This document shows, piece after piece, positions 8,557 through 64,000 of a DNA stretch of 64,000 bases. Under the pieces are notes generated by a model that did not search any database, was not told the origin of the DNA, and worked only from the letters and a program-made list of their open reading frames with translations. Position 1 is the first letter of the stretch. Every line of letters starts with the position of its first letter. Source of the DNA: Alphaproteobacteria bacterium. GTDB lineage: Bacteria > Pseudomonadota > Alphaproteobacteria > Rs-D84. A program made the translations under genes and the position numbers. Location of the stretch: positions 21,986-85,985 of the forward strand of contig WRKW01000001.1 in NCBI GenBank assembly GCA_009777955.1, written 5' to 3'.

Positions 8557-8576
8557 AGGTTTTAAAGTTTAGATAT

Positions 8577-30867: not shown

Positions 30868-30976
30868 TTTGAATCCTCTTGGTGTTGAATTTAGCAAAAT
30901 GGTTAAGTTTGTCAATAAGAAATATTATGTTGTTTTTTTGTTCCGTCGTTGTTATTATTTTTAAAAGGAGTTTGAC

Positions 30977-40651: not shown

Positions 40652-42838
40652 TTACTGTGTGATTGTACATGTACTACCAACCCATGTGCCGCTTTTATTT
40701 TGACACCACATTTCATCCATAAAATTGTCTTCGCTTGCACTATTACTTGTTACTGTACCTCTAGTGACGCTTAAACAGGTTTTTGAAATAGATCTGCATG
40801 CATCTCTTGCGATAGATTGGGGGCGCGCATCATCTTGTTTCCCGCCACTATTCTGGTTTAAACATGTTATAACATCCATGACGCAGTTTTCAGCATGACT
40901 TGCGATTACTTCATCTTGTTTAGTTTTTATTTGAAAAAATACACGTTTCAAAAATTCTTTTGTTCCCATGTTATCTGGCTTGAATACTCTTCTGTTTGCT
41001 GGACCTCTAAATGATACATTTTGGCATTTATTCAATACGGATATGCACATGCCATGACTTTTTCCATCTTTCTCGTTTACCCAACCAATTTTGTTCATCA
41101 TGGAAACCAACAACACAGATGCTTGAGGAATGTGAGGGTCAAACCCTTTAGCAGGATCCGATGGAGTAAGCTCATTAAGTTTATCCAACATATCATCTAT
41201 AGTACCAGCACCGTTTCCGCTTAGCCAAGGATTGGCAGATGTTCTACTTGTTCCATAACTCCAGACTTTATAAATTCCTTCGCTGGCAGGCGATGTAACA
41301 GTATCAAAATTACCTGGCATACTTCCCGGCACAAGAGCTCCATTAACTATGAATTTACCTGTCGGATCAAGGCAGTTTTCATAATCGCTGCCACAAACGA
41401 AATCATTCTGCATACAGGCATCAAGTGCGTTTACACAACCTTTCATATCATACATATTCTTGCTTTGTGCAACTGCAAGACGTGCGCGTTCCAATACTGT
41501 CTTTGCATTTTTTACAGTCCGGCGCATATTGGTGTTCGCATCGTCCAGACTGCGTTCGTATACTATGCATTGGCGGTCGATTTCAAGATCGTACGAATTG
41601 GAAAGTATTGTAGTGTCGACACCCTGGCGGCGACAATTTTCAAGAACAGACCGTTTGCATTGGGTAGACGCGCTTTTGTACAGTTCCGCCCCGCGCATAT
41701 TTATAATGTTGCCCCCCCCGCCGAAATTAAACAAAGAGCCAAGGTCGAAACCAAAATCAGAATCAAACGACATCTCAAAATCCAGTGACAGACCTTCGTC
41801 TGAAAATGTCGCGCTGGTCGGCTTTAAATCAAGAACCAACCTTCCAATGCGTGCTATATCGGCCGCATTCTGTGTGGAATCCACGGTGCCGGCCATTGCT
41901 GCTTCGGCTTCTGTTGCGCTGAACAGACTTATGACTTCATCTTTGGTAAGGCCGATATATTGTATTTTACGCGCAACATCTTGTAATTCTTCGGTGGCTT
42001 GTTTAAGGGTACTTTCCAGATTTCTGTATTTTGTTACGCTGGCACTGCATGAACAACGACCCTGGTTGTCATCAAGCACCGCGCAGTATCCATCCATACA
42101 TGAAAAATATTGTGCCCGACAGAAATCTGACAGCTGTGCAATTTCTTCCATTGTGGGTCCGGACATCTGCATTTGTCCCTCTGCACTGCGTGCAGTGCTA
42201 TTGCCAAGGCTGCCGCCGCCTATGCTGCTGTTCCTGCGTATCGGTGTGCCGCGGGCAATCCCACTGCGTTCAGTATTTGCCGGGGTATAAAGAGATCCGC
42301 CGGCGGCTTGGGTAACACCGGAACGCGCCGTATTTACGTTTTGTATTGGTTGTCTGGGGGTGGTTGCCTGTGCCGTTGGTGCGTTTTGCGCCGGTACAGC
42401 CTGTGCCCCGCCGGCCGCACTGCGCATGGCGGATGCAGATCCGCCCGTTGCCATTGCACGGGATGTTTGGGCACCCGAACCCTGGGCATTTATTATATTT
42501 CCAGCGGTAGTTACAGGAACCGCAGAACGCGAAGCCACAGCACGTGTTTGTACTGTGTTCCCCGATCTATCCGCTGGGCGTGTCGCACCCTGAACACCGG
42601 GCACCGCACCGCCACCCCGTGCCACATTGCGATTGATTGTCGCACGTGGATTAATATTTACAGGTTTTGCCGCAACCGGGGCAGTGGATGTTGATGCAGA
42701 TTCAAGCTCTGCCGTTTCTTCTATGGGTTCAACTTCGTCCGCGTATTCATCGGCATACCCGAAATATTGGGCGGGCGAAATCTCTGCAACCGCAGGAAAT
42801 GCAAGCAGTCCAAGCATAGCGAACAAATATTTTTTCAT
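40652..42838 (-). CDS. Large secreted Cys-rich protein with an Arg/Ala/Gly/Ser/Thr-rich N-terminal linker (paralog of 6544-8556)
   Basis: 728 aa. Signal peptide MKKYLFAMLGLLAFPAVAE, about 200 aa of low complexity, then FCRAQYFSCMDGYCAVLDDNQGRCSCS, helical segments, KGCVNALDACMQNDFVCGSDYENC, and C-terminal WCQNKSGTWVGSTCTITQ. 20 Cys by my count. Confidence 0.75.
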   Translation of the reverse strand: MKKYLFAMLGLLAFPAVAEISPAQYFGYADEYADEVEPIEETAELESASTSTAPVAAKPVNINPRATINRNVARGGGAVPGVQGATRPADRSGNTVQTRAVASRSAVPVTTAGNIINAQGSGAQTSRAMATGGSASAMRSAAGGAQAVPAQNAPTAQATTPRQPIQNVNTARSGVTQAAGGSLYTPANTERSGIARGTPIRRNSSIGGGSLGNSTARSAEGQMQMSGPTMEEIAQLSDFCRAQYFSCMDGYCAVLDDNQGRCSCSASVTKYRNLESTLKQATEELQDVARKIQYIGLTKDEVISLFSATEAEAAMAGTVDSTQNAADIARIGRLVLDLKPTSATFSDEGLSLDFEMSFDSDFGFDLGSLFNFGGGGNIINMRGAELYKSASTQCKRSVLENCRRQGVDTTILSNSYDLEIDRQCIVYERSLDDANTNMRRTVKNAKTVLERARLAVAQSKNMYDMKGCVNALDACMQNDFVCGSDYENCLDPTGKFIVNGALVPGSMPGNFDTVTSPASEGIYKVWSYGTSRTSANPWLSGNGAGTIDDMLDKLNELTPSDPAKGFDPHIPQASVLLVSMMNKIGWVNEKDGKSHGMCISVLNKCQNVSFRGPANRRVFKPDNMGTKEFLKRVFFQIKTKQDEVIASHAENCVMDVITCLNQNSGGKQDDARPQSIARDACRSISKTCLSVTRGTVTSNSASEDNFMDEMWCQNKSGTWVGSTCTITQ

Positions 42839-44463: not shown

Positions 44464-45558
44464 ATGAGAAAATTGTTGGCATTATTTGCCCTGTGTCTTG
44501 CGCCATATGCCCTGTCCGCTGCGGAATACAGTGCCGCGCTGGTTGCAGATATGGATACGGGAACGGTGCTTTTCAAAGACCGCGCAGATGATTTGAATTA
44601 TCCGGCCAGCCTTACCAAAATAATGACACTTTACCTTACGTTCGATGCATTAGAGCATGGGCGGCTGAATCTGAACGATCATTTGATAGTATCTGTGGCC
44701 GCAGCAAGTGCAAAGCCGGTAAAACTGGGACTTTCTGCGGGTTCTAAAATTTCAGTAGAAGATGCGATAAAGGCCGTTGCGGTTCATTCTGCCAATGATG
44801 TTGCGCGGGTTTTGGCCGAAAATCTGAAAGGTGGCAAAGAAGGAAATTTCGCATCGCTTATGACCGATGTCGCAAGGCAAATAGGCCTTTCAAAAACCAA
44901 TTTCGAAAATGCGTCGGGTCTGCCGGATGAAGATCATCTTTCCAGCGCGCGCGATATCGCATTGCTATCAATGGCGACGTACAAACATTTTCCACAATAT
45001 TGGAAGTATTTTGGATTGAAAAGCTTTACCTATGGCGGCAAGACATACAGCAACAGCAATAAACTTTTGGGCGTTTATCCCGGTATGGATGGAATGAAAA
45101 CAGGCTTTACAAATAGTGCCAAATATTGTCTGGTTGCTACTGCAAAACGTGACGGGCGGCGCATAATGGCGGTGGTTTTGGGCGCACCGACCAGGGAAGC
45201 GCGAAGCAACGCGGTACGTCGGTTGTTGGACAGGGGATTCGGAAGAGAAAATAATTTGGCCGCAGTTGAAAATCCCGCACCCGCGCCAACGCCATCGGTA
45301 CAAAAACCGTCTGTCATAGTGGCGAAAAATAACGATGGCGGTGGCAAATCGGGTGTACAGTTCGGCGCATTCGGATCAAGGAATGCTGCGGAAACCCAGG
45401 TTAAGAAAGTACAGACTGTGTTCGGATTAAAACCCGTGATAGAGCAATCATCCAACAAAATGTTCCGTGTACGGGTTGGTGGGATGTCTTTGGGTTCGGC
45501 GCAACAGATAGCGTCGCAATGCAAGTCAAAGGGAATAGACTGTTTTGTGTTCAGATAA
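44464..45558 (+). CDS. D-alanyl-D-alanine carboxypeptidase (PBP5/6-like, S11) with a C-terminal SPOR domain
   Basis: 364 aa. Signal peptide; SLTK (SxxK), SAND (SxN) and KTG motifs. The C-terminus GVQFGAFGSRNAAETQVKKV...MFRVRVGGMSLGSAQQIASQCKSKGIDCFVFR fits the SPOR pattern. Confidence 0.88.
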   Translation: MRKLLALFALCLAPYALSAAEYSAALVADMDTGTVLFKDRADDLNYPASLTKIMTLYLTFDALEHGRLNLNDHLIVSVAAASAKPVKLGLSAGSKISVEDAIKAVAVHSANDVARVLAENLKGGKEGNFASLMTDVARQIGLSKTNFENASGLPDEDHLSSARDIALLSMATYKHFPQYWKYFGLKSFTYGGKTYSNSNKLLGVYPGMDGMKTGFTNSAKYCLVATAKRDGRRIMAVVLGAPTREARSNAVRRLLDRGFGRENNLAAVENPAPAPTPSVQKPSVIVAKNNDGGGKSGVQFGAFGSRNAAETQVKKVQTVFGLKPVIEQSSNKMFRVRVGGMSLGSAQQIASQCKSKGIDCFVFR

Positions 45559-53496: not shown

Positions 53497-54123
53497 TTAT
53501 CTTGTCACAGGAGAAATTCTTATTTCAACACGACGGTTCATAAGTCGTCCTATGTTCGTCTGATCTGATATAGGCCGTGCGCTGCCCCTTCCCACAACGA
53601 ACATGCGGACTGGTTTTACTTTGTGTTGAGCCATGAATAAAGCCACGCGTTCCGCCATGTCAAAACTGAACGCGATTGCAGAGTTTTGATCGCGCATGGC
53701 ATCGGAATAGCCAGCTATTTCAATATAAGTCCGGTCGTATTTCGCCAGGACTTTGGAAAGTTGGTTCAGGGTGTCGGCACCGTCACTGGAAATATCCGGA
53801 TGATCAAGCGACATGAATGCGTCGCGCACCATGACAACCAACGCGTCTCCGCCTATGCGGGTAATCTGAATCCCCGGTTTTCGTAAAGAATCCGAAAGTT
53901 CTATTTCCAATGCGGACATATAGGTCGCGACTTCTTGCTGTTCAAGTGTTTTGCCGCCGGCACCCAAATAAATAGGTTTTTTTGCTACCTTTGATGTTTC
54001 CGTCATTGCCCCAAAGCTTGCGCCTTTTAAGATGGTATCCCAGGTTCCGCGTTCCGGTGTTTTGTATCCGCCGCAAGAGCAGAGCATGGTTAACAAAGCA
54101 CAGAGTATAGATATTTTTTTCAT
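53497..54123 (-). CDS. OmpA/MotB-domain peptidoglycan-associated lipoprotein
   Basis: 208 aa. MKKISILCALLTMLCSCGG is a lipobox-like sequence. The C-terminal IEIAGYSDAMRDQNSAIAFSFDMAERVALFM....VGRGSARPI......RLMNRRVEIRI is the OmpA-C-like motif set. Confidence 0.8.
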   Translation of the reverse strand: MKKISILCALLTMLCSCGGYKTPERGTWDTILKGASFGAMTETSKVAKKPIYLGAGGKTLEQQEVATYMSALEIELSDSLRKPGIQITRIGGDALVVMVRDAFMSLDHPDISSDGADTLNQLSKVLAKYDRTYIEIAGYSDAMRDQNSAIAFSFDMAERVALFMAQHKVKPVRMFVVGRGSARPISDQTNIGRLMNRRVEIRISPVTR

Positions 54124-54124
54124 T

Positions 54125-54619
54125 TTATTTCACCACGAATGTTACTTTGTTTTTTTCATCACGCTTGCAATTTTCGGCGGGCAGTCCTTCGTAAAAGTCG
54201 TTTATCCGGATGTCTGTGACCCAATCGAAATGTTGTGTCGCAGCCCAAGAGCAGTCGGCAAAGCTGACACCATGAAGATTAATTTGAAAAACACTGCCCT
54301 CCTGTTCGGGAAAAAGGTCGAATTCACTTGCTATGGATATCGCGGCACCAGTTTTCAGCGCGCCCATTTTTATAAGATAACCGACAGATATTCCAGTATA
54401 GTTGTTTTTTCCGGCGAATAAAAGTCGGCTGTTGCGCGCGATATCTTTAAGATCTTCTGCTGCTATCATACGATCCTTGCGAACCTGTACAGATTGATAC
54501 ACTTGGAATGTTCCGGCAATCATAATCGCACCCAGAGCCATGACACCAACAACTTCTATCAAAGATCTGCCGCTTTCAGCTGTATGAGATGTAAAGCGTG
54601 ATATATTGTTTTTAATCAT
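54125..54619 (-). CDS. Type IV pilin / pseudopilin-like protein (atypical prepilin leader)
   Basis: 164 aa. Leader MIKNNISRFTSHTAESG, then RSLIEVVGVMALGAIMIAGTF with Glu at +5 after the Gly. This is followed by an amphipathic helix, a beta-rich body and a C-terminal Cys pair (..FADCSW....AENCKRD) resembling a pilin D-region. The stop lies 1 nt from the next gene's start. Confidence 0.5.
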   Translation of the reverse strand: MIKNNISRFTSHTAESGRSLIEVVGVMALGAIMIAGTFQVYQSVQVRKDRMIAAEDLKDIARNSRLLFAGKNNYTGISVGYLIKMGALKTGAAISIASEFDLFPEQEGSVFQINLHGVSFADCSWAATQHFDWVTDIRINDFYEGLPAENCKRDEKNKVTFVVK

Positions 54620-54657
54620 TATCTTATACTCCCTTTATAAAAAATTTGGTTTATAAT

Positions 54658-56214
54658 TTATGATGTTTTTACTATTTCCGCACCTTCAAACAAACCCAGC
54701 GCGCCCGCAACCAAAGGATCTGCCGCCGCTGTGGCTATTGATTGTTCTTTGGCAGAAGGCAGTCCCGTTGATTCCGTAATTTGTTCAAGCTGCCATTGTT
54801 TACCCGTGTTATCAAACAGCCATTTGCCTAATTTTATTGCAAAATCTTTATCGCCTTTGCGATTAAAAAACTTAATGCGGCCGTTCACGAATTCAGAAAT
54901 TTCGATATTGTTGTTAAAATCCGACAACAACAGTATCTCTTTTGCAATATCCAGTGCTGTGGCAAGATCAGCGGCAGAATTAATATTGGCAAGATTATTG
55001 GTCGTCAAACTTTCGGTTCCGATATCATTTGGTTTTGTATCTTTATTTGCAATGATTTTTGTTTTGCTTTCTTCGCTTTGTTGTAACAATGTTGCTATTG
55101 GTGGCATATCCGCGATATGCATAAGACGTACTACCAGCATATCAAAGCATTGTTTCTGGTTTCCTGACTTTTGCATTTCTTCGACAGATGCGACCATAAC
55201 CTGCCACAGGCGTGACAAGGTGTTCAATGATACTTCAGCACACAGGCTTTGCATCTGTTCGCGATGATCTGCGGAAAAAGGTGCGCTTGCAATGCTGCCC
55301 GCACGAAGACTTGGGTGCATACGTGTGCACCAGTGTGTCCATTCCATCATATCGCCAAGCAACAATGATAAATCCGCCCCGTTTGCATAAAGAGTATCTG
55401 CTTTCGCAAGTGCCGCCGCAGTGTCATTTGAAAGCAGAGTCTTCATGAAATCCACAACCACGCCGCGATCTGCGCGCTTTAACATGTCCAATACTGCCGT
55501 GCGGTCAACCTTGCCGCCCGTTTGTGCAATCGCTTGGTCAAGAAGCGACAATCCATCGCGGACGGAACCATCCGCCGCGCGTGCAATCAGTTCATTTGCA
55601 TCTTCGGATAATTCGACTTTTTCCTGATCCGCAATCCATGCAAAATGTTTTTTCAATGTTTCAACAGCCACACGAACCAGATCAAACCGTTGGCATCGCG
55701 ACAAAATTGTTACCGGCACTTTTCTTATTTCTGTTGTTGCGAGTATGAATATGATGTGTGCTGGTGGTTCTTCCAATGTCTTCAACAGGGCATTGAATGC
55801 AGATGTCGATAGCATGTGGACTTCGTCTATGATATATACTTTGTATCGTCCGTTGGTCGGGCGATATTGCGCCGCATCCAATATGTCGCGCATGTTGTCC
55901 ACACCCGTATGCGAAGCCGCATCGATTTCCAGCACGTCGATATGCTGACCCGCCGCGATTGCAAGACAATTTTCGCAAATACAGCAGGGACTTGCGGTCG
56001 CTTTTGCACCGGAAAGACAGTTCAGGGCTTTGGCCAGAATGCGAGCCGTAGATGTTTTTCCAGTCCCGCGAATTCCAGTAAATATATATGCATGTGCAAT
56101 GCGGTCTGTGTTTATTGCAGTGGTAAGTGTTTTTACCAGAACATCTTGACCCATCAGAGTGTTGAAATCTTGGCTGCGGTATTTCCGCGCGAGTACGGTG
56201 TAATTTTCGCTCAT
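54658..56214 (-). CDS. dnaX: DNA polymerase III subunit gamma/tau
   Basis: 518 aa. Walker A GIRGTGKTSTARILAK, Zn module CLSGAKATASPCCICENC, and the DEVHML and SRCQRFDL motifs. Confidence 0.93.
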   Translation of the reverse strand: MSENYTVLARKYRSQDFNTLMGQDVLVKTLTTAINTDRIAHAYIFTGIRGTGKTSTARILAKALNCLSGAKATASPCCICENCLAIAAGQHIDVLEIDAASHTGVDNMRDILDAAQYRPTNGRYKVYIIDEVHMLSTSAFNALLKTLEEPPAHIIFILATTEIRKVPVTILSRCQRFDLVRVAVETLKKHFAWIADQEKVELSEDANELIARAADGSVRDGLSLLDQAIAQTGGKVDRTAVLDMLKRADRGVVVDFMKTLLSNDTAAALAKADTLYANGADLSLLLGDMMEWTHWCTRMHPSLRAGSIASAPFSADHREQMQSLCAEVSLNTLSRLWQVMVASVEEMQKSGNQKQCFDMLVVRLMHIADMPPIATLLQQSEESKTKIIANKDTKPNDIGTESLTTNNLANINSAADLATALDIAKEILLLSDFNNNIEISEFVNGRIKFFNRKGDKDFAIKLGKWLFDNTGKQWQLEQITESTGLPSAKEQSIATAAADPLVAGALGLFEGAEIVKTS

Positions 56215-56423: not shown

Positions 56424-58901
56424 TTACAATATCGGTGGGAAGCAGTCGCCGTCGCCGGATGCAGGACAGCAAGAACCAGTGGGTGAATCGGGGCTGGTAA
56501 CGCTTGGGTCGAATACTTCACCCATGCTTGCACAACAGCCTTCATGATCCGGTGGGCTTCCGTCATCACAGCTTATACCCATAGAAACAGCGGGTGGTGG
56601 CGGTGGTGGTTTTTCAAATGGGTTTTTCAGCATGGTGCCGGCATCATTATATTGCAGTCCCAAAATCTGTTGATTATATTCCTGGGAACTCGGGGCCAAT
56701 ATTTGACCGCTTTGTGTGGTTATTCCGCCACGATTGCTTAAATCTTGCCAATAAGTGTTATATGCGGCTTGGGTTCTGCCCTGGTACATGTTTGATTTGC
56801 ACCAGAATTCCGCAGCCCGATAATCCAGGCCTTTTGCTTGTAATTGAGCTGCATCAAGTGCAACTTCGCCGGTATTGTTGCCATTATTATCTGTTTCACA
56901 AACGCCTTGCATGCTGGTGGTAAACGCGCGAACCTGTCCCATCCATTCTTCGGGGTTGTTTGACATTTTCAGTTGGTTGCTTGGATTTACATAAGGTCTG
57001 TAAAATTCGCTGGGGGCATGGATTGCACATTTTTTATTTTCGATACCTTCCTCGCCGCATGTTACTACCAGATCGGTTGGCGAAAATACTGTTATTCTGG
57101 TTCCGGCTGCGATAGAGAATGGCGGGGTGGTATTTTCCAACATATCCATGGTAAGTTTTTGCACAACCTTGTTCCAGGTGGATATTATTTCCTGTTTTGC
57201 AAGTTCGCTGGAACGAACTTGTCCGGACTGTGTCACTGTATTGTTATCAAGATCAATCTGATTCACGAACCTGTCCGATATAGGCGCGATAAGGTTAACG
57301 GCCGCAGGAACCACAGCTGTTATCATGGGCATAAGCATACTTTCTATATAGTCTGTGGTTCCGTATCCTGGCACTCCGGCACGACCCTGGCTGTCGGCGG
57401 AAAACGGTTCTTGATCGCCTGCAAAATTAAATTCCACGCCATCCGGTCGTACAAATCGGTACCATTTTATATCCATTCGTCCTATGGATCTGTATGGCCC
57501 TGGCAGTTCGCCCGTCATGAAACCCAACATCATGGTTCCGGCCGGAACTATTATTGTGCGGCCGTTATCGGAATATACGTGGCGATCGACAGTTGCTGTG
57601 ACCGGCAGATGCGACATGCGCTTTGGATCCGCGCGAATTTCTGAAACGATTGTCGCCGGTATAGGCTTGAACTGGCGCAGGACAAATGTACGGTCGTGTG
57701 GAACGCTGGATACGGTCGCTTCGGCACCTATGGAAGATGGCAAAAGACTGCTGACTGTTCTTTGTTCTCTCATTTCTATACGGGTGGCTTCGCCTGCCGC
57801 CGGGGTTGGGGCTGATGATTGTTGCGCCCTGTTTATTGTGCGACCGCTTCTTGCGCTGGAAAGATTTGGCAGGGCAAGATTTGCAGTAACACTGCGTGCA
57901 CCGATACGTTCTGAATCAGAGCCGATTGTCTTTGATTTATTCTTTATGTCATAAATCAGACCAGTATCCGGATTGTATTCGCCCGTGGGATTATTGCAAT
58001 CTCTGTCACTGAACGGATGGTACATATACCGACCGCCGTCTGCACGAATCCATCCAGAATGTCTTCCAGATAAATTATATCCAGCAAATGCGAATTCGTA
58101 ACACAGCTCTGCCGCTGGTGTAGCATCAATGATTACATCATTGGAAACTGGGGCTTGGGGACGGGGTTCCGGCACAGGCAACGGTTCTGGTTCGAATTCG
58201 GGTTCAAATTCTTGTTCGTACTCTGGTTCGAAAGGCAAATCTTCTTCAAAAGTAAGATCCGGTTCCAATGAATCAAAAACAGGGTCGATTTCTTCAAAAA
58301 TAAATGTTGGTTCCGGTTCTGTTATGCTGAACGGTTCTGTGTTTTCTATATTCGTTAATGTTTCCGGTTGGCGGGCGGGTATATTTTCATTTTTTGATTC
58401 TTTCGCCGATAACAGAACTGGTAACTTTTCCATTTCCGACATGCTTGCCGGTTGGGTTGCCGAATGATATATTATCTGGATTTCCGCACCAGTATCTTTC
58501 AGCGGAACATCCGGTTTGAATTCCAATGTTATGTTGCATGGAACTTTTGGCGAAATTACCCCCATGTTAGTGCAAGTGGAACGCTGGGTCAGCCCATGAG
58601 AATCGGGATCTTCCAATCCGGCGATTTTAACATCTGCAATCTTTACATCCGTTGTTGCTGAAACTTCGATTCTTTGGGTTCTGGTATCGCCGACCGTGAC
58701 ATCGCGCCATTCTATTTCAGTCGTATCCAGCACAATACCGATTTTTACAGCGGTGGTTGTTCTTTGCGTTTTTTTCGGACTGGATAATACTAGCAAAAGT
58801 AAAATCACTACTACCAGAAACGCCGCGAACAAAAGCAACCATTGCACATGAACAGGCAACTGTTGTCTAAGATTTGTGAAAAATTCTTTAAGTTTGCTCA
58901 T
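56424..58901 (-). CDS. virB10: VirB10/TrbI-family type IV secretion core protein with an extra N-terminal module and a Cys/Pro-rich C-terminal extension
   Basis: 825 aa. N-terminal TM WLLLFAAFLVVVILLLLVL, acidic/Pro-rich EPEFEPEPLPVPEPRPQAP, and TrbI-like core IPATIVSEIRAD..VTATVDRHVYSDNGRTIIVPAGTMMLGFMTG...GRMDIKWYRFVRPDGVEF...SQGRAGVPGY...AGTRITVFSPTDLVV. A tail of about 212 aa with 10 Cys and PPPPPP follows. Confidence 0.8.
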   Translation of the reverse strand: MSKLKEFFTNLRQQLPVHVQWLLLFAAFLVVVILLLLVLSSPKKTQRTTTAVKIGIVLDTTEIEWRDVTVGDTRTQRIEVSATTDVKIADVKIAGLEDPDSHGLTQRSTCTNMGVISPKVPCNITLEFKPDVPLKDTGAEIQIIYHSATQPASMSEMEKLPVLLSAKESKNENIPARQPETLTNIENTEPFSITEPEPTFIFEEIDPVFDSLEPDLTFEEDLPFEPEYEQEFEPEFEPEPLPVPEPRPQAPVSNDVIIDATPAAELCYEFAFAGYNLSGRHSGWIRADGGRYMYHPFSDRDCNNPTGEYNPDTGLIYDIKNKSKTIGSDSERIGARSVTANLALPNLSSARSGRTINRAQQSSAPTPAAGEATRIEMREQRTVSSLLPSSIGAEATVSSVPHDRTFVLRQFKPIPATIVSEIRADPKRMSHLPVTATVDRHVYSDNGRTIIVPAGTMMLGFMTGELPGPYRSIGRMDIKWYRFVRPDGVEFNFAGDQEPFSADSQGRAGVPGYGTTDYIESMLMPMITAVVPAAVNLIAPISDRFVNQIDLDNNTVTQSGQVRSSELAKQEIISTWNKVVQKLTMDMLENTTPPFSIAAGTRITVFSPTDLVVTCGEEGIENKKCAIHAPSEFYRPYVNPSNQLKMSNNPEEWMGQVRAFTTSMQGVCETDNNGNNTGEVALDAAQLQAKGLDYRAAEFWCKSNMYQGRTQAAYNTYWQDLSNRGGITTQSGQILAPSSQEYNQQILGLQYNDAGTMLKNPFEKPPPPPPAVSMGISCDDGSPPDHEGCCASMGEVFDPSVTSPDSPTGSCCPASGDGDCFPPIL

Positions 58902-58940: not shown

Positions 58941-60437
58941 TTATTGTATTCTTACCACATGACAGGCGACCGATTGGAACTTTTGCAATTGGTTGCAAAG
59001 CGTCTGAGCCTGATCTATGCCCGCCAACGGGCCGATACGCAGACGGTACAGTCGGGCAGAGCTGTTACCACCACCCAAATCGCCAACACCTTGTTCATCT
59101 ATTGCGAAGAACACTTTATCCCTGTAAGGAGTCAAGATTCCCGCGCCCTCATCACCGCTGAACTTTGCAAGCATCGTAGTCCAGTAATCATTAAGTGCCT
59201 TTACCGATGTGTCGGATCGCAATTCTACCGCGACACCAGCCTGATTGCTTGTAATCAGCGGTATGTTTGTTTGTGGCAGATATGATCCCGCAGTATTGCG
59301 TTGTTGTGGTACCATGTTCAGACCCGGGCTGCCCAAAGGCATAGTTGTTGGCGCACCGTGCATTTGTTGCATCGGCATCATCGGAACTTGTTGCATTCCG
59401 TACATCTGCTGCATCTGCATCATTCCACCATCCATCACAGGCATGCCAAAATAGCCAACATTGTTAAGTGATTGGGACGAATGCATGCTGCGTGCGACAT
59501 TTGCTTCTGCCAGGGCCATTACGCTTGCGGTATCTGCGATCAAGAATGGCTTTTCACGTTTCTTGATGCATACAAGCCGTTGACCGCTGCGCAGAACCAT
59601 ATCGCCGACCGCTTCGACGATAAGCAGGCGACCGTGTTCTCCATCAGTCCTGAACCCTACTGGACTTTCACCGCCTTCGATCAATATTGATACAACGGGT
59701 CGCTGTGTCATAGCGATGACTTTGTCTCCGAAATCGATATAGGTGAATATGCGGTCGCGCCATACGCGTTCCGGGGCAATAACATAATCGTCGGGATTTG
59801 GAACGAATATATCCAGATCGAACCGGAATTCTGATGGATCTATTTTCATTGTTTTTATCCAGCCATAATCTTCGCCGTCTGCCCCAATTGTATTGGTTCC
59901 GGCACCACTTTTTCTGGGAAATATTGAATTCATTCCGCCGCCGCTTGTTTGTCCGGCAGATGCAAAATTAACGGGCATGCTTGAATTGCCATCCAGTACA
60001 ACATCGACCTGGGTATATGTGATTTCCGATGAATTCGATGGTTCGGATCGCAAATAGAACAGGTATATGTTCCCGGATTTTCCGGTGACGATAAGGTTTG
60101 TGTCAGACCCCATATTATTTTCCAGCGGGGATATAAGCATTGTGCGACTGCCTTTTTGGACATCAAACTTGAACAGGCCATCACTTCCAATATCCCCCGC
60201 TTCAATCGCTTCCCCCTGGGGCAGATTTACCATGGTAACCATTCCAGTGCGCAGTTTTATTGGCAAGATTGTGCCAGAGCTCCAGGTAAGCCTTGCATAT
60301 CCGGGTTTCAGTGAACCGGCGGCCATGTTGGCTTCTGGGTGATCCCATGCCTCTTGGATATTTGCGTGCGCCTTTCCGATAAATATGGAAAAGCAAAACG
60401 CAAGGCACAAGGCGCAAAGCATAGATAGTTTTTTCAT
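58941..60437 (-). CDS. virB9: VirB9/TrbG/CagX-family type IV secretion core protein fused to a Met/Gln-rich linker and a SPOR-like domain
   Basis: 498 aa. Signal peptide MKKLSMLCALCLAFCFSIFIGKAHA. N-domain ..LPIKLRTGMVTMVNLPQGEAIE...TNLIVTGKSGNIYLFYL. C-domain IAPERVWRDRIFTYIDFGDKV..RPVVSILIEGGESPVGFR..LLIVEAVGDMVLRSGQRLVCIKK. Then MMQMQQMYGMQQVPMMPMQQM, and finally ..LYRLRIGPLAGIDQAQTLCNQLQKFQSVACHVVRIQ. Confidence 0.8.
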   Translation of the reverse strand: MKKLSMLCALCLAFCFSIFIGKAHANIQEAWDHPEANMAAGSLKPGYARLTWSSGTILPIKLRTGMVTMVNLPQGEAIEAGDIGSDGLFKFDVQKGSRTMLISPLENNMGSDTNLIVTGKSGNIYLFYLRSEPSNSSEITYTQVDVVLDGNSSMPVNFASAGQTSGGGMNSIFPRKSGAGTNTIGADGEDYGWIKTMKIDPSEFRFDLDIFVPNPDDYVIAPERVWRDRIFTYIDFGDKVIAMTQRPVVSILIEGGESPVGFRTDGEHGRLLIVEAVGDMVLRSGQRLVCIKKREKPFLIADTASVMALAEANVARSMHSSQSLNNVGYFGMPVMDGGMMQMQQMYGMQQVPMMPMQQMHGAPTTMPLGSPGLNMVPQQRNTAGSYLPQTNIPLITSNQAGVAVELRSDTSVKALNDYWTTMLAKFSGDEGAGILTPYRDKVFFAIDEQGVGDLGGGNSSARLYRLRIGPLAGIDQAQTLCNQLQKFQSVACHVVRIQ

Positions 60438-60511: not shown

Positions 60512-61192
60512 CTAAAAATCCAGCGGATCCCTGCCACCTTCAACCGTATATTCCGACACAAATATACCCAGCGGGTTTTCAAGACGACTTGCCCATTTTA
60601 TGGTATTATCGTCATTACGGTTAATTTTGAAATCTATTCCTATGATAATTGTATAATCTTTTCGGCCTATTTGTAAAGCATTATCCTCGCAGAAATATTT
60701 GAAATTTACTTCGTATGTCGAATTTCCCCTTTCGCCGCGTTTCAAAAGACTTACGGGGCGATCCGCAAATTCGACCCGGCACACCAGCCTTGAATCCGGC
60801 ACGTTGGTCATTATCGACTGGAACATCCTTGTCTGTGTGAATGCGTTATAGACTTCGGAACTGGACCATATGTTGACCATTCCGTTTTCACCCGTCCACC
60901 ATTTCCGTCGCATGACATTGATATTTGGTATGATTTCATTGCGGACTTTTATATATTCCCTTACAAAGTTTTCCTTGAATTCTTCGATATTCGCATCATT
61001 CGGAAAATAAGATCGCACGGTTATATGGCTGTCTGCGCGTGGTTCAGTGGTAAGAATGAAAATTTGGGTTTTCGACAGGGGCAAAATGTTGGACAAAGTC
61101 ACGACCAGTGCGACAACGGTCGCGAGCGCGGTCGCGAACACGAATGTCAGGATTCTGGACATTAAAATAGGCGGTTCTATGGTATTCATCAC
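60512..61192 (-). CDS. virB8: VirB8/TrbF-family type IV secretion inner-membrane protein
   Basis: 226 aa. Single N-terminal TM ILTFVFATALATVVALVVTL, FVREYIKVRNEI (family-typical F...Y...re.y) and C-terminal ENPLGIFVSEYTVE (NPLGF.V..Y motif). Confidence 0.7.
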   Translation of the reverse strand: MMNTIEPPILMSRILTFVFATALATVVALVVTLSNILPLSKTQIFILTTEPRADSHITVRSYFPNDANIEEFKENFVREYIKVRNEIIPNINVMRRKWWTGENGMVNIWSSSEVYNAFTQTRMFQSIMTNVPDSRLVCRVEFADRPVSLLKRGERGNSTYEVNFKYFCEDNALQIGRKDYTIIIGIDFKINRNDDNTIKWASRLENPLGIFVSEYTVEGGRDPLDF

Positions 61193-61383: not shown

Positions 61384-64000
61384 TCATGTCAATTGTTTAT
61401 CGATCATTTGGATTTGTTTACTAACTTCTTCCTGCTCTTTAATAGATTGCTTTTGGCTAGTTTTCTTTTCTTTTTTCAACTTATTAATTTTAAGTTGTGA
61501 TGCCTTGGCAGCTTTGGCTTTTTCGGCCTTTTCTTTTTTGATTTCTGCTTCTAATTCGTCGTCTTTTTTCGTTCCTTTCTCTTTTACTATTTCCATCTTT
61601 TGTGTCAGCCTTCTTTTCGCTTCTTTGATAAGTTCCTCTTTATGCTTAGACACTTCTTTTTTAACAATGTTTTTCGATGCTTCGATGTTGTATCTGGCAC
61701 TGTCGTTATCCATTATCTGTTTAATAGTTAAGCTTTTAGCATGGTTGATTCCCGGTTGATGTTTTTTTAGTTCCGTAATTGTTTTTGGATCTGTTACCCG
61801 CATCCTTTGTTCAGCAAGTTGGTTGATCATTTCAGGGGTCGGATTTTGACCCAGCATCTCTAACAATTCGTTCAGAAGTTTTTCAACAGTCTGAAAATTC
61901 TTTACATTATTTAATACTTCCATTAAGTTTCCGGCTTGTTTTATCTGTTCCAGCGTAAGGCTTTGGATATTTACACCATCTATATCCAATGTCTTTTTTA
62001 ATTTATCCAGTGTTTCTCTTTCATTGTCCGAGAATTGTCCTATACCAAATAATTTCCTTAACTTTTCGGCGCGTTCAGATTCTTCTTTCGAAAGATTCGG
62101 GTCGTCTTTCATGGCAAGTATGTTTTTTAATGCTTCCGATATATTTGCGGCTTTTTTACGATCCCAGTCCCCATCTCTCAGTTGAATTTTTAATTCTTCA
62201 GCGTGTTTCAGGTCTTCTGATGTAAGAGATCCAGATATGCTTCCTTTATTCAGTATTCCTTTTAATTCTTTTTTTACCGTTTGTTCAAAATCATCTAAAT
62301 GATGCTCGCTTAATTCATTTCTTAATTTTTCGGCATCAATTTCAACACGTTGAAGTTGCTTCGGTGTAAGGCCGGATCTGTTCCCTTTTCTTAAAACTTC
62401 TTCCAATTCTTTCAGTTCTTTTAATTTTTTGTCCAGCTGTATTTGCTTAATGCGATTGTTTTCTTCGATAGATTCCCTTTTGGGATCATCCAGGATGGGT
62501 TTTTCATCTGGGTTATCTATATCTGGGGCATCAACCCTGTCATCTGGTGTTAATGGCTCATCTTCGGATATTTCACTTTGGCTATCTATATCGTCGGATT
62601 TATCGGTGCCCGGTTCTGGCATACCGTCTATATCTGGGGCATCAACCCTATCATCTGGTGTTAATGGCTCATCTTCGGATATTTCACTTTGGCTATCTAT
62701 ATCGTCGGATTTATCGGTGCCCGGTTCTGGCATGCCGTCTATATCTGGGGTATCAACCCTGTCATCTGAGATTATAATAGGGATAGATGAGTCCCCACTA
62801 TCATTTGAGATTACAATAGGAATAGGTAATGGAACAGGTGGTTCTTTATCATTATCGGTTTCAACGTTTACGTTTTTTCTCCATATCTCAGAAAATTTTT
62901 GGATTTTTGTTGTCTTATAAACTTTTTCTTTTTCCTCTTCTGAAAGTTGCGCAAAGGCAGTTTCATAAATTTTTCCGATTTCAGGATTCAGATCTTTACC
63001 CATATTCGCAAAATTTTCAATATAATCTTTATCATCAAAAGCATCCTCTCCTATAAGATGATCGAATAGCATTGGTTTGTTATTTACCATTGCGCATATG
63101 TCATCAATGTAATATCCGAATTTGTCGTTATATAAGATGATAATATCTTTCCAATCTTTCGAAAGTTCCGGTTCAGCAGTTTTTTCCACACTTTTTTCCC
63201 AAAAATATTCGGAATCAAAAAGTTTGTTCTTTTTTTCGATCTCTTTTTTCAAATTCTCGATAGCCTTTTTGTCACCGGCCATTGCATCATCAAACAATTC
63301 TTTTGCAGATTTATTTTTGCCGGGATTATCGAAAAATTTCTTTATCTCGGCGGCTTTATCTTTTAACTTGTTACCAATTTTTTTGGCTTCATTTATACCC
63401 CTATCAATTAAACCGTCGGGTTGTTTTTTTTCTGTTTGATCATGCTGAGAGTCCTCTTCGTTTGTTTTGTCGTCTATGTCTCCGGGGCCTATGCGATATT
63501 TGTTATTTTCTGGGTCTTTGGGCCATTTATTCACACTGGTCATTATCATGTTAAAAAATTGCTTAAATTCTTTTTTTTCAGATTTTTCAGATGCATCGTC
63601 TTCTGCACGCCAGCTTTTCAGAAAACGGTGAATTCTATTGTGGTTGCTGGTTATCTGTATCGCACCGTTAAATACTTCGTATCCATAGTCATCCCCAGAG
63701 AAATTTATATATATAGCATTGGGATAAATATGTATTTCTGATTTTTTATCTTTCAAGTCAGATTTTAATTGATTCATAAACTTTTGATAAGGAATATTTT
63801 CGTAATGTTTTTGAATCTTTCTATCGGTATCATCTTCTTGGCGAACTTTTTCCATAATTTTATAAAGATCAACATTGCCATCTTTTTGGGCTTCCAAAAC
63901 TTTTTGTATAAAATCCCTTGTTCGCCCGGGGGCAAAAGTCAATTTTTTTCCGGAAGTTTTGGCTTCTAAATGTGTGCATATTGATACGACTTCGTCAAAA
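61384..64000 (-). CDS. Very large Lys/Glu/Asp-rich repeat-containing protein (N-terminus probably outside the window)
   Basis: The track ORF is 852 aa from TTG 63942, but the frame stays open to base 64000 (..FDEVVSICTHLEAKTSGKK-LTFAPG..). There is no TM or signal peptide in the visible part. It has acidic 37-aa tandem repeats, recurring '(K/T)(P/L)EQ..(L/I)xxAExL' helical units and a poly-Lys/Glu C-terminus. Confidence 0.7.
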   Translation of the reverse strand, partial: FDEVVSICTHLEAKTSGKKLTFAPGRTRDFIQKVLEAQKDGNVDLYKIMEKVRQEDDTDRKIQKHYENIPYQKFMNQLKSDLKDKKSEIHIYPNAIYINFSGDDYGYEVFNGAIQITSNHNRIHRFLKSWRAEDDASEKSEKKEFKQFFNMIMTSVNKWPKDPENNKYRIGPGDIDDKTNEEDSQHDQTEKKQPDGLIDRGINEAKKIGNKLKDKAAEIKKFFDNPGKNKSAKELFDDAMAGDKKAIENLKKEIEKKNKLFDSEYFWEKSVEKTAEPELSKDWKDIIILYNDKFGYYIDDICAMVNNKPMLFDHLIGEDAFDDKDYIENFANMGKDLNPEIGKIYETAFAQLSEEEKEKVYKTTKIQKFSEIWRKNVNVETDNDKEPPVPLPIPIVISNDSGDSSIPIIISDDRVDTPDIDGMPEPGTDKSDDIDSQSEISEDEPLTPDDRVDAPDIDGMPEPGTDKSDDIDSQSEISEDEPLTPDDRVDAPDIDNPDEKPILDDPKRESIEENNRIKQIQLDKKLKELKELEEVLRKGNRSGLTPKQLQRVEIDAEKLRNELSEHHLDDFEQTVKKELKGILNKGSISGSLTSEDLKHAEELKIQLRDGDWDRKKAANISEALKNILAMKDDPNLSKEESERAEKLRKLFGIGQFSDNERETLDKLKKTLDIDGVNIQSLTLEQIKQAGNLMEVLNNVKNFQTVEKLLNELLEMLGQNPTPEMINQLAEQRMRVTDPKTITELKKHQPGINHAKSLTIKQIMDNDSARYNIEASKNIVKKEVSKHKEELIKEAKRRLTQKMEIVKEKGTKKDDELEAEIKKEKAEKAKAAKASQLKINKLKKEKKTSQKQSIKEQEEVSKQIQMIDKQLT
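62516..62768. repeat. 111-bp tandem repeat (2.3 copies) inside the giant gene
   Basis: Units start at 62516, 62627 and 62738 (TCTATATCTGGGGCATCAACCCT..), differ by a few substitutions and encode DRVD(T/A)PDIDGMPEPGTDKSDDIDSQSEISEDEPLTPD on the minus strand. Confidence 0.9.

What the first reader, a model, noticed from the sequence alone, without database searches (positions are those of the whole stretch)
58941..59450. VirB9-like protein ends in a Met/Gln-rich linker and a SPOR-like peptidoglycan-binding domain
After the VirB9 C-domain (..RLVCIKK) the protein continues for about 190 aa.
- First comes a linker, ..PVMDGGMMQMQQMYGMQQVPMMPMQQMHGAPTTMP..
- Then comes a segment, GVAVELRSDTSVKALNDYWTTMLAKF....LYRLRIGPLAGIDQAQTLCNQLQKFQSVACHVVRIQ. 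It follows the beta-alpha-beta-beta-alpha-beta SPOR pattern (x-V-x-L-x-S ... A ... W ... L ... YRLRxGP ... A ... LC ... L ... C-x-VV).

The same pattern closes the PBP5-like protein at 44464-45558. SPOR domains bind denuded septal glycan. I do not recall a SPOR domain fused to a T4SS outer-membrane core subunit. Such a fusion would tether or target the complex to peptidoglycan, possibly at division sites.
Basis: partly seen in the sequence, partly recalled or inferred. Interest (0 to 1): 0.7.

Follow-up and report, generated by a model that had tools for sequence, protein, structure and literature searches.

The report
VirB9 secretion subunit with variant SPOR tail
A structural protein of a type IV secretion machine in a tiny-genome gut bacterium really does end in a cell-wall-binding-type (SPOR) domain. 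The fusion is common in its relatives, and its key sugar-binding glutamine is always a glutamate, so it probably does not read the cell wall the way textbook SPOR domains do.

Summary
ORF 58941..60437(-) encodes a 498-aa VirB9/TrbG protein: signal peptide, VirB9 domains, a conserved helix, a 48-aa Met/Gln-rich linker and a C-terminal SPOR-like domain (res 400-498).

SPOR homology is supported by:
- Pfam: 23.2 bits for the isolated tail against a cutoff of 21, and 44/44 homolog tails hit.
- Profile-profile comparison with bona fide SPOR domains: 99.1%, E 1.8e-18.
- A beta-alpha-beta-beta-alpha-beta AlphaFold model whose best PDB matches are the DedD and RlpA SPOR domains.

The fusion is not rare. 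It sits in the VirB8-VirB9-VirB10 triad of all 80 related species genomes retrieved (Rs-D84/'Ca. Enterousia' gut Alphaproteobacteria). It is also in a second large clade and in several deep lineages. No paper in the searchable library describes it.

The main twist is the hallmark SPOR glutamine (RlpA Q270, FtsN Q251). It is Glu in 120/120 and 119/119 members of the two clades. Non-VirB9 SPOR domains recovered by the same profile have Gln. In FtsN, Q251E is the classic mutation that reduces denuded-glycan binding.

Best reading: a periplasmic cell-wall tether with altered specificity. Septal targeting is unsupported. New variant of known kinds; moderate interest.

The parts
58941..60437 (-). 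virB9/trbG-like gene, 498 aa including the C-terminal SPOR-like module
   Evidence: ORF. PF03524 CagX 67.3 bits and weak PF05036. More than 1300 full-length homologs at 62-73% identity.
60363..60437 (-). Probable Sec signal peptide (res 1-25, MKKLSMLCALCLAFCFSIFIGKAHA, cleavage after AHA). No lipobox.
   Evidence: Read from the sequence. No signal-peptide predictor was run.
59994..60299 (-). VirB9 N-terminal beta-sandwich domain (res 47-148)
   Evidence: AlphaFold pLDDT about 90. Foldseek match to R388 TrwF/VirB9 NTD 7o3t_B: E 6e-10, TM 0.80, rmsd 2.1.
59559..59855 (-). VirB9 C-terminal (O-layer) domain region (res about 195-293). It is the most conserved part of the protein.
   Evidence: Covered by PF03524. 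Near-invariant in 120 homologs. AlphaFold confidence is low, about 30.
59460..59552 (-). Conserved segment after the VirB9 CTD (res 296-326, KPFLIADTASVMALAEANVARSMHSSQSLNN), with a predicted helix at 303-319
   Evidence: Conservation. Helix in the AlphaFold model.
59301..59444 (-). Low-complexity Met/Gln/Pro/Gly linker (res 332-379), predicted disordered
   Evidence: Translation. 13 Met and 9 Gln of 48 residues. Variable length of 34-64 aa in homologs. pLDDT about 32.
59241..59300 (-). Conserved pre-domain segment (res 380-399, RNTAGSYLPQTNIPLITSNQ). The 'LP....PL(I/V)' motif is shared with distant VirB9-SPOR proteins.
58944..59240 (-). SPOR-like domain (res 400-498): b1 401-409, a1 412-427, short helix 436-441, b2 442-447, about 15-aa loop, b3 463-471, a2 474-487, b4 493-497. 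It ends exactly at the protein C-terminus (..VVRIQ).
   Evidence: Pfam. AlphaFold models. Foldseek hits to DedD 6ztg and RlpA SPOR 6i09/6i05. hhalign 99.1%.
59223..59225 (-). Codon of Glu405, which occupies the position of the hallmark SPOR glutamine (RlpA Q270 / FtsN Q251)
   Evidence: Translation. Column equivalence from hhalign and hmmsearch alignments to FtsN 1uta and RlpA 6i05. E in 120/120 and 119/119 homologs.
59037..59045 (-). Codons of Arg465-Leu466-Arg467 in strand b3 (YRLRIGP), equivalent to the RlpA R309/R311 basic patch
58962..58997 (-). Span from the Cys481 codon (58995..58997, helix a2) to the Cys492 codon (58962..58964, start of b4). This invariant pair is a candidate periplasmic disulfide.
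   Evidence: Invariant in all alignments. The same pair is present in 8 of 9 canonical SPOR domains of alignment A2. The disulfide itself is inferred.
60512..61192 (-). virB8 homolog immediately upstream
   Evidence: PF04335, 37.4 bits. Syntenic in 80/80 loci.
56424..58901 (-). virB10/trbI homolog immediately downstream (825 aa, with long N- and C-terminal extensions)
   Evidence: PF03743, 59.8 bits, res 413-611. Syntenic in 80/80 loci.
45346..45552 (+). Comparator: canonical SPOR domain (with Gln, VQFGAF) at the C-terminus of the PBP5-like D,D-carboxypeptidase 44464..45558
   Evidence: PF05036, 37.8 bits. Sequence.

Best explanation
**What it is.** This is the VirB9 outer-membrane-core subunit of a chromosomal, vertically inherited P-type (VirB/Rickettsiales-vir-like) type IV secretion system. 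The host is a reduced-genome gut alphaproteobacterium of the order Rs-D84 ('Ca. Enterousia' group).

**How it is built.** After Sec export, the VirB9 N- and C-terminal domains build the core complex with VirB10. From the C-terminal (outer-layer) domain run a conserved helix and then a 34-64 residue disordered linker. The linker lets a SPOR-fold domain hang into the periplasm.

**What the tail most likely does.**
- It most likely tethers or positions the outer-membrane complex on the peptidoglycan sacculus.
- By analogy with solved VirB9 rings, about 14 copies would surround each machine.
- It would use the canonical beta-sheet groove, where Glu405, Arg465 and Arg467 are conserved across all lineages and are flanked by small residues.

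**Why it is not a textbook SPOR domain.** The hallmark Gln is invariably Glu and the Phe is lost. The domain is therefore a distinct, VirB9-specific SPOR subfamily. Its glycan preference is probably changed or weakened relative to the denuded-glycan specificity of FtsN, DamX or RlpA.

**Shown:** the architecture, the homology, the fold, the conservation and the distribution.

**Inferred:** periplasmic location of the tail, peptidoglycan binding, copy number and altered specificity.
For: **VirB9 identity**
- PF03524 at 67.3 bits.
- N-terminal domain fold match to R388 TrwF/VirB9: TM 0.80, E 6e-10.
- VirB8-VirB9-VirB10 synteny in 80/80 loci.

**SPOR homology**
- The isolated tail scores 23.2 bits against a cutoff of 21, and 44/44 homolog tails hit PF05036.
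- A profile of the tail searched against 1.8 billion representative proteins retrieves bona fide multi-SPOR proteins. Eight of the ten scanned carry PF05036 at 81-117 bits, and one more at 25.8 bits.
- hhalign gives 99.1%, E 1.8e-18 over the whole domain.
- The AlphaFold topology is beta-alpha-beta-beta-alpha-beta.
- The best PDB matches are DedD and RlpA SPOR domains, probability 0.99-1.0, TM 0.67-0.73 normalised to the SPOR domain.

**A functional groove is retained**
- Across domains only 26-40% identical, the near-invariant positions are E405, R465, L466, R467, G469, W419, L415, C481, C492 and Q498.
- Alternate strand positions facing the ligand side are small (A/S403, A/G407), as in the canonical xQxG motif.
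- RlpA R309/R311 equivalents are kept (roles of these residues from PMC6895207).

**Strong selection on the module**
- The tail has 81% mean column identity while the linker is free to vary.
- It is kept in genomes of less than 1 Mb (PMC12306168).

**The cell has peptidoglycan and a canonical SPOR protein**
- PBP5-SPOR, an LD-carboxypeptidase and an OmpA-like protein are in the window.
- RodA, MreB and MrdA are reported for the lineage.
Against: - No binding data exist, and the organism is uncultured.
- Glu at the Gln position is the substitution that reduces denuded-glycan binding and septal localisation in FtsN. Glycan binding may therefore be weak or lost.
- The Phe274-equivalent is not aromatic.
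- Glu405 could simply salt-bridge Arg465/Arg467 and plug the lactyl-carboxylate pocket.
- The Pfam match covers only the second half of the model (positions 42-75 of 76).
- The Foldseek E-values are weak (4e-3 to 1e-2).
- Sequence profiles of the tail do not find solved SPOR structures directly.
- The periplasmic (rather than surface) location of the tail was not tested.
- The rest of the T4SS gene set was not seen in the window.
Confidence: 0.5

Rival explanations
1. The tail is a canonical SPOR domain that binds denuded septal glycan. It thereby recruits or deposits the T4SS at division sites, so that machines end up at new poles.
For: - True SPOR homology and fold.
- The basic Arg pair that holds the MurNAc lactyl carboxylate is conserved.
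- Many SPOR-glycan contacts are made by main-chain atoms (PMC6895207), so some denuded-glycan affinity could survive.
- About 14 copies per machine would add avidity (inference from solved VirB9 rings).
Against: - The single most conserved glycan-contacting side chain (Gln) is Glu in 120/120 and 119/119 sequences and in all deep lineages except one, which has Asp.
- FtsN Q251E reduces denuded-glycan binding and septal localisation.
- Non-VirB9 SPOR domains found with the same profile have Gln (15), Asn (1) or His (1) and never Glu. The change is therefore a family-specific specialisation, not drift.
- The aromatic residue (RlpA F274) is absent.
Confidence: 0.18
2. The SPOR fold has been co-opted as a protein-protein or structural module of the secretion machine. 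For example, it could form a ring under the core complex, or dock on the greatly extended VirB10 or on VirB8. It would have no peptidoglycan binding: Glu405 pairs with Arg465/Arg467 and fills the former sugar pocket.
For: - Glu is strictly conserved next to the conserved Arg pair.
- The domain occurs only with VirB9.
- A conserved pre-domain segment and the absolutely conserved C-terminal ..VVRxQ-COOH suggest extra interaction surfaces.
- The neighbouring VirB10 proteins carry unusual long extensions that could be partners.
Against: - The small residues flanking Glu405 on the sheet face, like the canonical Q-x-G, keep a groove open.
- A long, variable, disordered linker is typical of a tether to a distant target rather than of a fixed subunit contact.
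- No partner has been identified.
Confidence: 0.2
3. The tail is exposed on the cell surface and acts as a lectin or adhesin for the cell wall or glycans of the partner cell on which these metabolically dependent bacteria are proposed to live.
For: - The lineage is predicted to be partner-dependent (PMC12306168).
- Surface exposure of parts of the VirB9 C-terminal domain has been reported for other systems (my own recollection, not checked here).
- The Gln-to-Glu change would fit a different ligand.
Against: - In solved core complexes the VirB9 C-terminal domain lies under the outer membrane (established knowledge; fold matches).
- No transmembrane or beta-barrel element follows it.
- The invariant Cys pair fits a periplasmic, Dsb-oxidised domain as well.
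Confidence: 0.07
4. The SPOR resemblance is fortuitous: a generic ferredoxin-like fold or compositional pattern, with no homology.
For: - The full-length protein falls 0.8 bits below the Pfam cutoff, and only half of the model is matched.
- Sequence profiles of the tail do not hit solved SPOR structures.
- Many ferredoxin-like folds appear among the lower Foldseek hits.
Against: - hhalign E 1.8e-18 over 83 columns.
- Reciprocal retrieval of strong SPOR proteins from 1.8 billion sequences.
- SPOR domains are the top three structural hits.
- 44/44 homolog tails hit PF05036.
Confidence: 0.02

Closest known systems
VirB9/TrbG/TrwF/CagX outer-membrane core complex subunits of P-type T4SS (e.g. R388 TrwF, PDB 7o3t/8rt6; X. 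citri VirB9, 6gyb)
   Same: - Signal peptide.
- N-terminal beta-sandwich (TM 0.80 to TrwF NTD).
- The CagX Pfam domain spans both VirB9 domains.
- The gene lies between virB8 and virB10.
   Different: - About 205 extra C-terminal residues: a conserved helix, a disordered linker and a SPOR-like domain.
- It scores far below the NCBIfam VirB9 equivalog cutoff (41.5 against 217.7 bits).
- tblastn of the tail (E limit 0.01) found no match among 72,556 plasmid records.
SPOR domains that bind denuded peptidoglycan glycan (E. coli FtsN, DamX, DedD; P. aeruginosa RlpA, PDB 6i05/6i09; B. subtilis CwlC)
   Same: - Beta-alpha-beta-beta-alpha-beta RNP-like fold.
- YRxRxGP strand with the Arg pair.
- C-terminal position behind a flexible linker.
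- A Cys pair, as in many alphaproteobacterial SPOR domains (FtsN also needs a disulfide).
(PMC6895207)
   Different: - Hallmark Gln replaced by an invariant Glu; the Phe is lost.
- An extra short helix, and an insertion of about 15 residues between b2 and b3.
- Conserved ..VVRxQ C-terminus.
- Found only on VirB9.
- Ligand untested.
FtsN(Q251E), the engineered SPOR mutant
   Same: The same residue change at the same structural position as the natural Glu405.
   Different: In FtsN it is a loss-of-function lesion. Here it is the conserved wild-type state in thousands of sequences, which implies that it is functional in its own context.
Peptidoglycan-binding modules attached to other envelope-spanning machines: the OmpA-like DotK in the Legionella Dot/Icm core complex, TagL/TssL of T6SS, GspA/ExeA of T2SS, LysM proteins TsaP/FimV of type IV pili, MotB and Pal
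   Same: The concept is the same: a cell-wall-binding domain anchors or positions a trans-envelope machine. DotK is a listed Dot/Icm core-complex component. Its OmpA-like, peptidoglycan-binding nature and the other examples are from my own knowledge.
   Different: Those use OmpA-like, PG_binding_1 or LysM folds, usually on accessory proteins. Here a SPOR-type fold is fused in cis to the conserved VirB9 core subunit.
Rickettsiales vir homolog (rvh) T4SS
   Same: - Chromosomal, scattered T4SS genes among housekeeping genes.
- Duplicated virB8 in the second clade.
- Host-dependent alphaproteobacteria with reduced genomes.
(rvh features from my own knowledge)
   Different: I know of no SPOR tail on RvhB9 proteins. 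This was not tested here because no Rickettsia sequences were retrieved.

Membership tests
VirB9/TrbG/CagX (PF03524) | Pfam CagX domain above the gathering score | tested here: met
   67.3 bits against a cutoff of 34.2, res 50-293.
VirB9/TrbG/CagX (PF03524) | N-terminal beta-sandwich fold of VirB9 | tested here: met
   AlphaFold pLDDT about 90. Foldseek 7o3t_B (TrwF/VirB9 NTD): E 6e-10, TM 0.80, rmsd 2.1. Also matches X. citri VirB9, DotH and CagX.
VirB9/TrbG/CagX (PF03524) | C-terminal O-layer domain fold | tested here: inconclusive
   The region is covered by the Pfam match and is highly conserved, but the AlphaFold model has pLDDT about 30 there.
VirB9/TrbG/CagX (PF03524) | Gene context virB8-virB9-virB10 | tested here: met
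   Present in the window and in 80/80 related loci. Also in clade 2 and deep lineages.
VirB9 equivalog (NCBIfam TIGR02781) | Score above the curated equivalog cutoff | tested here: not met
   41.5 bits against 217.7. It is a divergent VirB9, not the Agrobacterium-type equivalog.
SPOR domain (PF05036) | Pfam score at or above the gathering score | tested here: inconclusive
   Full protein 20.2 bits, below 21. Isolated tail 23.2 bits, above 21, and 44/44 homolog tails hit. The match covers only model positions 42-75 of 76.
SPOR domain (PF05036) | Homology over the whole domain to bona fide SPOR domains | tested here: met
   hhalign A3 against A2: probability 99.1%, E 1.8e-18, 83 columns. The profile retrieves proteins carrying PF05036 at 81-117 bits.
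SPOR domain (PF05036) | Beta-alpha-beta-beta-alpha-beta RNP-like fold | tested here: met
   AlphaFold models. The top Foldseek PDB hits are DedD 6ztg and RlpA SPOR 6i09/6i05, TM 0.67-0.73 normalised to the target.
SPOR domain (denuded-glycan binders) | Conserved Gln in strand b1 (RlpA Q270 / FtsN Q251) that hydrogen-bonds MurNAc lactyl and GlcNAc N-acetyl | tested here: not met
   Glu405 in the window. E in 120/120 and 119/119 homologs, with one Asp in a deep lineage.
SPOR domain (denuded-glycan binders) | Basic patch on the sheet (RlpA R309/R311, FtsN R285) | tested here: met
   R465 and R467 are invariant or near-invariant.
SPOR domain (denuded-glycan binders) | Preferred aromatic residue four positions after the Gln (RlpA F274) | tested here: not met
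   Asp409 in clade 1. The position is variable and small or polar in the other lineages.
SPOR domain (denuded-glycan binders) | Binding to amidase-processed (denuded) glycan and septal localisation | not testable with these tools
   This needs sacculus pull-down, ITC and localisation experiments.

The most novel reading that the evidence does not exclude
The VirB9-attached 'Glu-type' SPOR domain is a natural specificity switch. It would recognise a peptidoglycan feature other than ordinary denuded glycan. Candidates are de-N-acetylated sugars (whose amine could pair with Glu405), or the strand ends lining the hole through which the machine passes. It could even recognise the wall of a partner cell. 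This would define a second ligand class for SPOR domains and a previously undescribed way of coupling a T4SS core complex to the cell wall in a large, uncultured group of host-dependent gut bacteria.
Probability: 0.25. Interest if true: 0.75.

Novelty: new variant of a known kind. Interest (0 to 1): 0.5.

Why it matters
- **For T4SS biology.** How T4SS core complexes are positioned relative to the sacculus is poorly understood. Here the conserved core subunit itself carries a cell-wall-type module. It does so in thousands of sequences from reduced-genome gut Alphaproteobacteria that probably depend on other cells.
- **For SPOR biology.** This is a natural, strictly conserved version of the classic Q-to-E 'binding-dead' mutation. 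Either SPOR folds can read another ligand, or they can be recycled for a non-glycan role. Both are directly testable with a small soluble domain.
- **For annotation.** These proteins are currently named only 'TrbG/VirB9 family', and the tail sits at or just below the Pfam cutoff.

Tried and rejected
- phmmer of the full protein against PDB sequences gave no hit.
- Profiles of the tail (A1, A3) against PDB sequences gave only noise; CwlC reached E 1.3. The link to solved SPOR domains had to go through an intermediate alignment of canonical SPOR domains and through fold comparison.
- A word-indexed search with the alignment of divergent tails returned only 13 mostly fragmentary proteins and added little.
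- tblastn of the tail against 72,556 plasmids gave no match. Conjugative plasmids in that set therefore do not carry this module.
- BLASTP between the two SPOR tails of the window is marginal (E 0.045). The 'same pattern' is family-level, not close kinship.
- I looked for a VirB7-like lipoprotein ORF beside virB8 in the window and found none. Clade 2 does have one.
- I looked for other T4SS genes in the window and found none among the ten large ORFs scanned.
- The taxonomy of the second clade and of the deep lineages could not be resolved beyond 'Alphaproteobacteria/Rickettsiales bacterium' labels.
- 'Not a SPOR domain' and 'N0-like or other ferredoxin-like fold' were considered and rejected.
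Full report
**1. What is in the sequence**

The finding lies in ORF 58941..60437 on the minus strand, 498 aa. Pfam places a VirB9/CagX domain at residues 50-293 (PF03524, 67.3 bits, cutoff 34.2). It also gives a weak SPOR match at residues 462-495 (PF05036, 20.2 bits, cutoff 21).

The flanking genes on the same strand are a VirB8 homolog (60512..61192) and a VirB10/TrbI homolog (56424..58901, 825 aa). The linker has 13 Met and 9 Gln in 48 residues. The PBP5-like protein at 44464..45558 does carry a clear SPOR domain (37.8 bits).

**2. Is the C-terminal module a SPOR domain?**

Several independent lines agree.
- The isolated tail (res 378-498) scores 23.2 bits, above the Pfam cutoff. All 44 non-redundant homolog tails hit PF05036, best E 3.7e-07.
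- A profile of the tail searched against 1.84 billion representative proteins found 52 proteins at E up to 0.001.
  - Apart from VirB9-type proteins and fragments, these are classical SPOR proteins. Of the ten non-VirB9 hits I scanned, eight carry PF05036 at 81-117 bits and one (P0148, a 179-aa fragment with the Glu-type tail) at 25.8 bits.
  - The tenth is a leucine-rich-repeat false positive.
- Profile-profile comparison of 19 divergent VirB9-attached tails (A3) with nine canonical SPOR domains (A2) gives probability 99.1%, E 1.8e-18 over 83 columns, which is the whole domain.
- AlphaFold2 predicts beta-alpha-(short alpha)-beta-beta-alpha-beta. Confidence is pLDDT 68.6 for the tail alone and 75-88 for the tail within the full-length model.
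- Foldseek against the PDB ranks DedD (6ztg) and the RlpA SPOR domain (6i09, 6i05) first for the tail model: probability 0.99-1.0, TM 0.67 normalised to the SPOR domain. It finds 6i09 again in the full-length model, with TM 0.73, rmsd 3.1 A and 18% identity.

The weak points are these.
- The Pfam alignment covers only the second half of the model.
- The Foldseek E-values are modest.
- Direct profile searches of PDB sequences fail.

The domain also carries an extra short helix and a loop of about 15 residues between strands 2 and 3.

**3. Is the N-terminal part a real VirB9?**

Yes. The N-terminal domain is modelled with pLDDT of about 90. It superposes on R388 TrwF/VirB9 (7o3t_B, E 6e-10, TM 0.80, rmsd 2.1), X. 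citri VirB9, DotH and CagX.

The C-terminal VirB9 domain is the most conserved stretch but is poorly modelled. The protein scores far below the NCBIfam VirB9 equivalog cutoff, so it is a divergent member.

**4. Distribution**

- **Main clade.** The full-length protein has more than 1300 homolog clusters. The 120 best cover 95-100% of the query at 65-73% identity, and sources name them only 'TrbG/VirB9 family'.
  - A scan of one genome per species returned 80 loci. All come from gut, rumen or termite MAGs labelled Candidatus Enterousia, Alphaproteobacteria or Rickettsiales bacterium.
  - All 80 have VirB8-VirB9(+tail)-VirB10 in this order.
  - GTDB order Rs-D84/Enterousia has genomes mostly under 1 Mb, lacks most biosynthetic pathways, and is proposed to depend on a partner cell (PMC12306168).
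- **Genomic setting.** The triad sits among housekeeping genes: dnaX here, and secE-nusG-rplK in another species. No other T4SS genes lie in the window.
- **Second clade.** A second large clade (P0142-like, 55-87% identical to P0142 among the 120 best hits, 1108 proteins at E up to 1e-10) has the same architecture. Its operon holds two VirB8 genes, a 58-aa lipoprotein, a giant VirB10 of 2274-2354 aa and VirB11.
- **Deep lineages.** Several deeper singletons (P0128, P0131, P0134-P0137, P0163) also combine CagX with the tail.
- **Database visibility.** The protein collection's precomputed Pfam column already lists PF05036 together with PF03524 for part of both clades, so the fusion is visible in databases.
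- **Literature.**
  - No paper in the searchable library contains both 'SPOR domain' and 'VirB9'.
  - Two contain the separate words 'SPOR' and 'VirB9'. In the one I opened, VirB9 occurs only in the reference list; the other was not read.
  - A 2025 comprehensive T4SS review has no occurrence of SPOR.
- **Plasmids.** The tail has no tblastn match in 72,556 plasmids.

**5. The twist: a Glu where SPOR domains have their hallmark Gln**

- In the hhalign alignment, the strand-1 motif I-A-V-E-L of the VirB9 tails lies on W-V-Q-L-G of canonical SPOR domains.
- The same Gln column aligns to FtsN ..VQCGSF (Q251) and RlpA ..LQVGAF (Q270).
- The RlpA-glycan crystal structures show that Q270 hydrogen-bonds the MurNAc lactyl group and the GlcNAc N-acetyl group, and that it is the only highly conserved side-chain contact. 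R302/R309/R311 form the basic patch and F274 stacks on a sugar (PMC6895207).
- In the window protein these positions are Glu405, Arg465/Arg467 (both kept) and Asp409 (not aromatic).
- Glu occupies the Gln position in 120/120 clade-1 proteins and 119/119 clade-2 proteins. It also does so in every deeper VirB9-linked sequence except one, which has Asp.
- Non-VirB9 SPOR domains picked up by the same HMM have Gln (15), Asn (1) or His (1), and never Glu.
- Across tails only 26-40% identical, the near-invariant residues are E405, L415, W419, R465, L466, R467, G469, C481, L484, C492 and the C-terminal Q498. The sheet-face neighbours of E405 are small (A/S403, A/G407).

The canonical groove therefore looks preserved and under selection, but with a different key residue.

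**6. How it most likely works**

*Shown:* a secreted VirB9 whose outer-layer domain is followed by a conserved helix, a variable disordered linker and a conserved SPOR-fold domain that ends the protein.

*Inferred:*
- In solved core complexes the VirB9 C-terminal domain sits just under the outer membrane, in about 14 copies.
- A 34-64 residue flexible linker could let the tails reach the peptidoglycan layer.
- There the conserved sheet groove would hold glycan strands and fix or position the complex in the sacculus.
- Given Glu405, the ligand preference is probably not that of FtsN or RlpA.

I give this altered-specificity peptidoglycan-tether model about 0.5. The rivals are:
- A fold recycled for protein contacts, with Glu405 plugging the Arg pocket: 0.2.
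- A surface-exposed lectin for a partner cell: 0.07.
- Chance resemblance: 0.02.

**7. Comparison with what is known**

It is a member of the VirB9/CagX family, though divergent. It is a homolog of SPOR domains, but it fails the defining Gln test, so it should be filed as a distinct VirB9-specific SPOR-like subfamily and not as a denuded-glycan binder.

Functionally, the nearest concept is the peptidoglycan-binding accessory module of other envelope machines: DotK in Dot/Icm, TagL in T6SS, GspA in T2SS, TsaP/FimV in type IV pili. Those use other folds and separate proteins. This comparison is from my own knowledge, except that DotK's membership of the core complex is supported.

**8. Verdict**

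- The fusion is real, conserved and apparently undescribed in papers.
- It is common in its lineage and already visible in domain databases.
- Its key residue argues against the simple septal-glycan story.
- Novelty: new variant of known kinds. Interest is about 0.5. It would rise to about 0.75 if the Glu-type domain proves to read a different cell-wall ligand.

Noticed in passing
window 56424..58901 (-): The VirB10 homolog is 825 aa, but its TrbI domain covers only res 413-611. It also has:
- weak Ig-like hits at res 48-131 (Cep192_D4, choice-of-anchor D);
- an acidic EPEF/EPEP repeat (12-nt tandem repeat at 58185..58232);
- a C-terminal extension of about 210 aa that ends in a poly-Pro run and a Cys-rich tail (..CCASMGE..SCCPASGDGDCFPPIL).
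In the second clade VirB10 is giant, 2274-2354 aa.
   Followed up: partly
window 61384..64000 (-), continuing beyond the window end: - A Lys/Glu-rich protein lies directly upstream of virB8. It is 972 aa on the full contig.
- It has no Pfam domain.
- It holds a 111-nt tandem repeat of 2.3 copies at 62516..62768 (97% matches).
- tblastn found no relative next to the triad in any of the other 80 loci.
- It could be a lineage-specific T4SS-associated or secreted protein.

   Followed up: partly
window 44464..45558 (+): This PBP5-type D,D-carboxypeptidase (Peptidase_S11, 188 bits) carries a canonical C-terminal SPOR domain (37.8 bits) that keeps the hallmark Gln (VQFGAF) and FRVRVGG. The same genome thus has both a Gln-type and a Glu-type SPOR domain. 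The ortholog recurs near the T4SS triad in other species.
   Followed up: partly
L086 6887..8471 and L087 4795..6508: In two metagenomic loci the SPOR-like module is called as a separate ORF of 156 or 167 aa. It lies immediately after, or overlaps, a 364 or 415 aa ORF that follows virB8. This is either a frameshift or assembly error in the low-complexity linker, or a genuinely split gene.
   Followed up: no
window 59508..59972 (-) (protein res 156-310): AlphaFold2 gives very low confidence (pLDDT about 30) to the VirB9 C-terminal domain, although it is the most conserved part of the protein in 120 homologs. Perhaps it folds only with VirB10/VirB7 partners, or perhaps the alignment was too shallow.
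   Followed up: no
L088 8976..9152 and L084 1395..1571: In the second clade a 58-aa ORF lies between the two virB8 copies. The L088 copy, which I translated, has a lipoprotein signal (..LSVAAC) and is likely a VirB7-like lipoprotein; the L084 ORF was not translated. No equivalent small lipoprotein ORF lies beside virB8 in the window.
   Followed up: partly
window 6544..8556 (+), 8496..9428 (+), 29536..30915 (-), 40652..42838 (-): Four sizeable ORFs (670, 310, 459 and 728 aa) have no Pfam family at E up to 1e-5, in an otherwise housekeeping-rich stretch of a reduced genome.
   Followed up: no
window 53497..56214 (-): The T4SS triad is followed directly by dnaX, a 164-aa protein with no Pfam hit and an OmpA-family (Pal-like) protein. 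In other species the triad sits beside secE-nusG-rplK instead. The triad therefore moves as a unit among core genes, without the other T4SS genes.
   Followed up: partly
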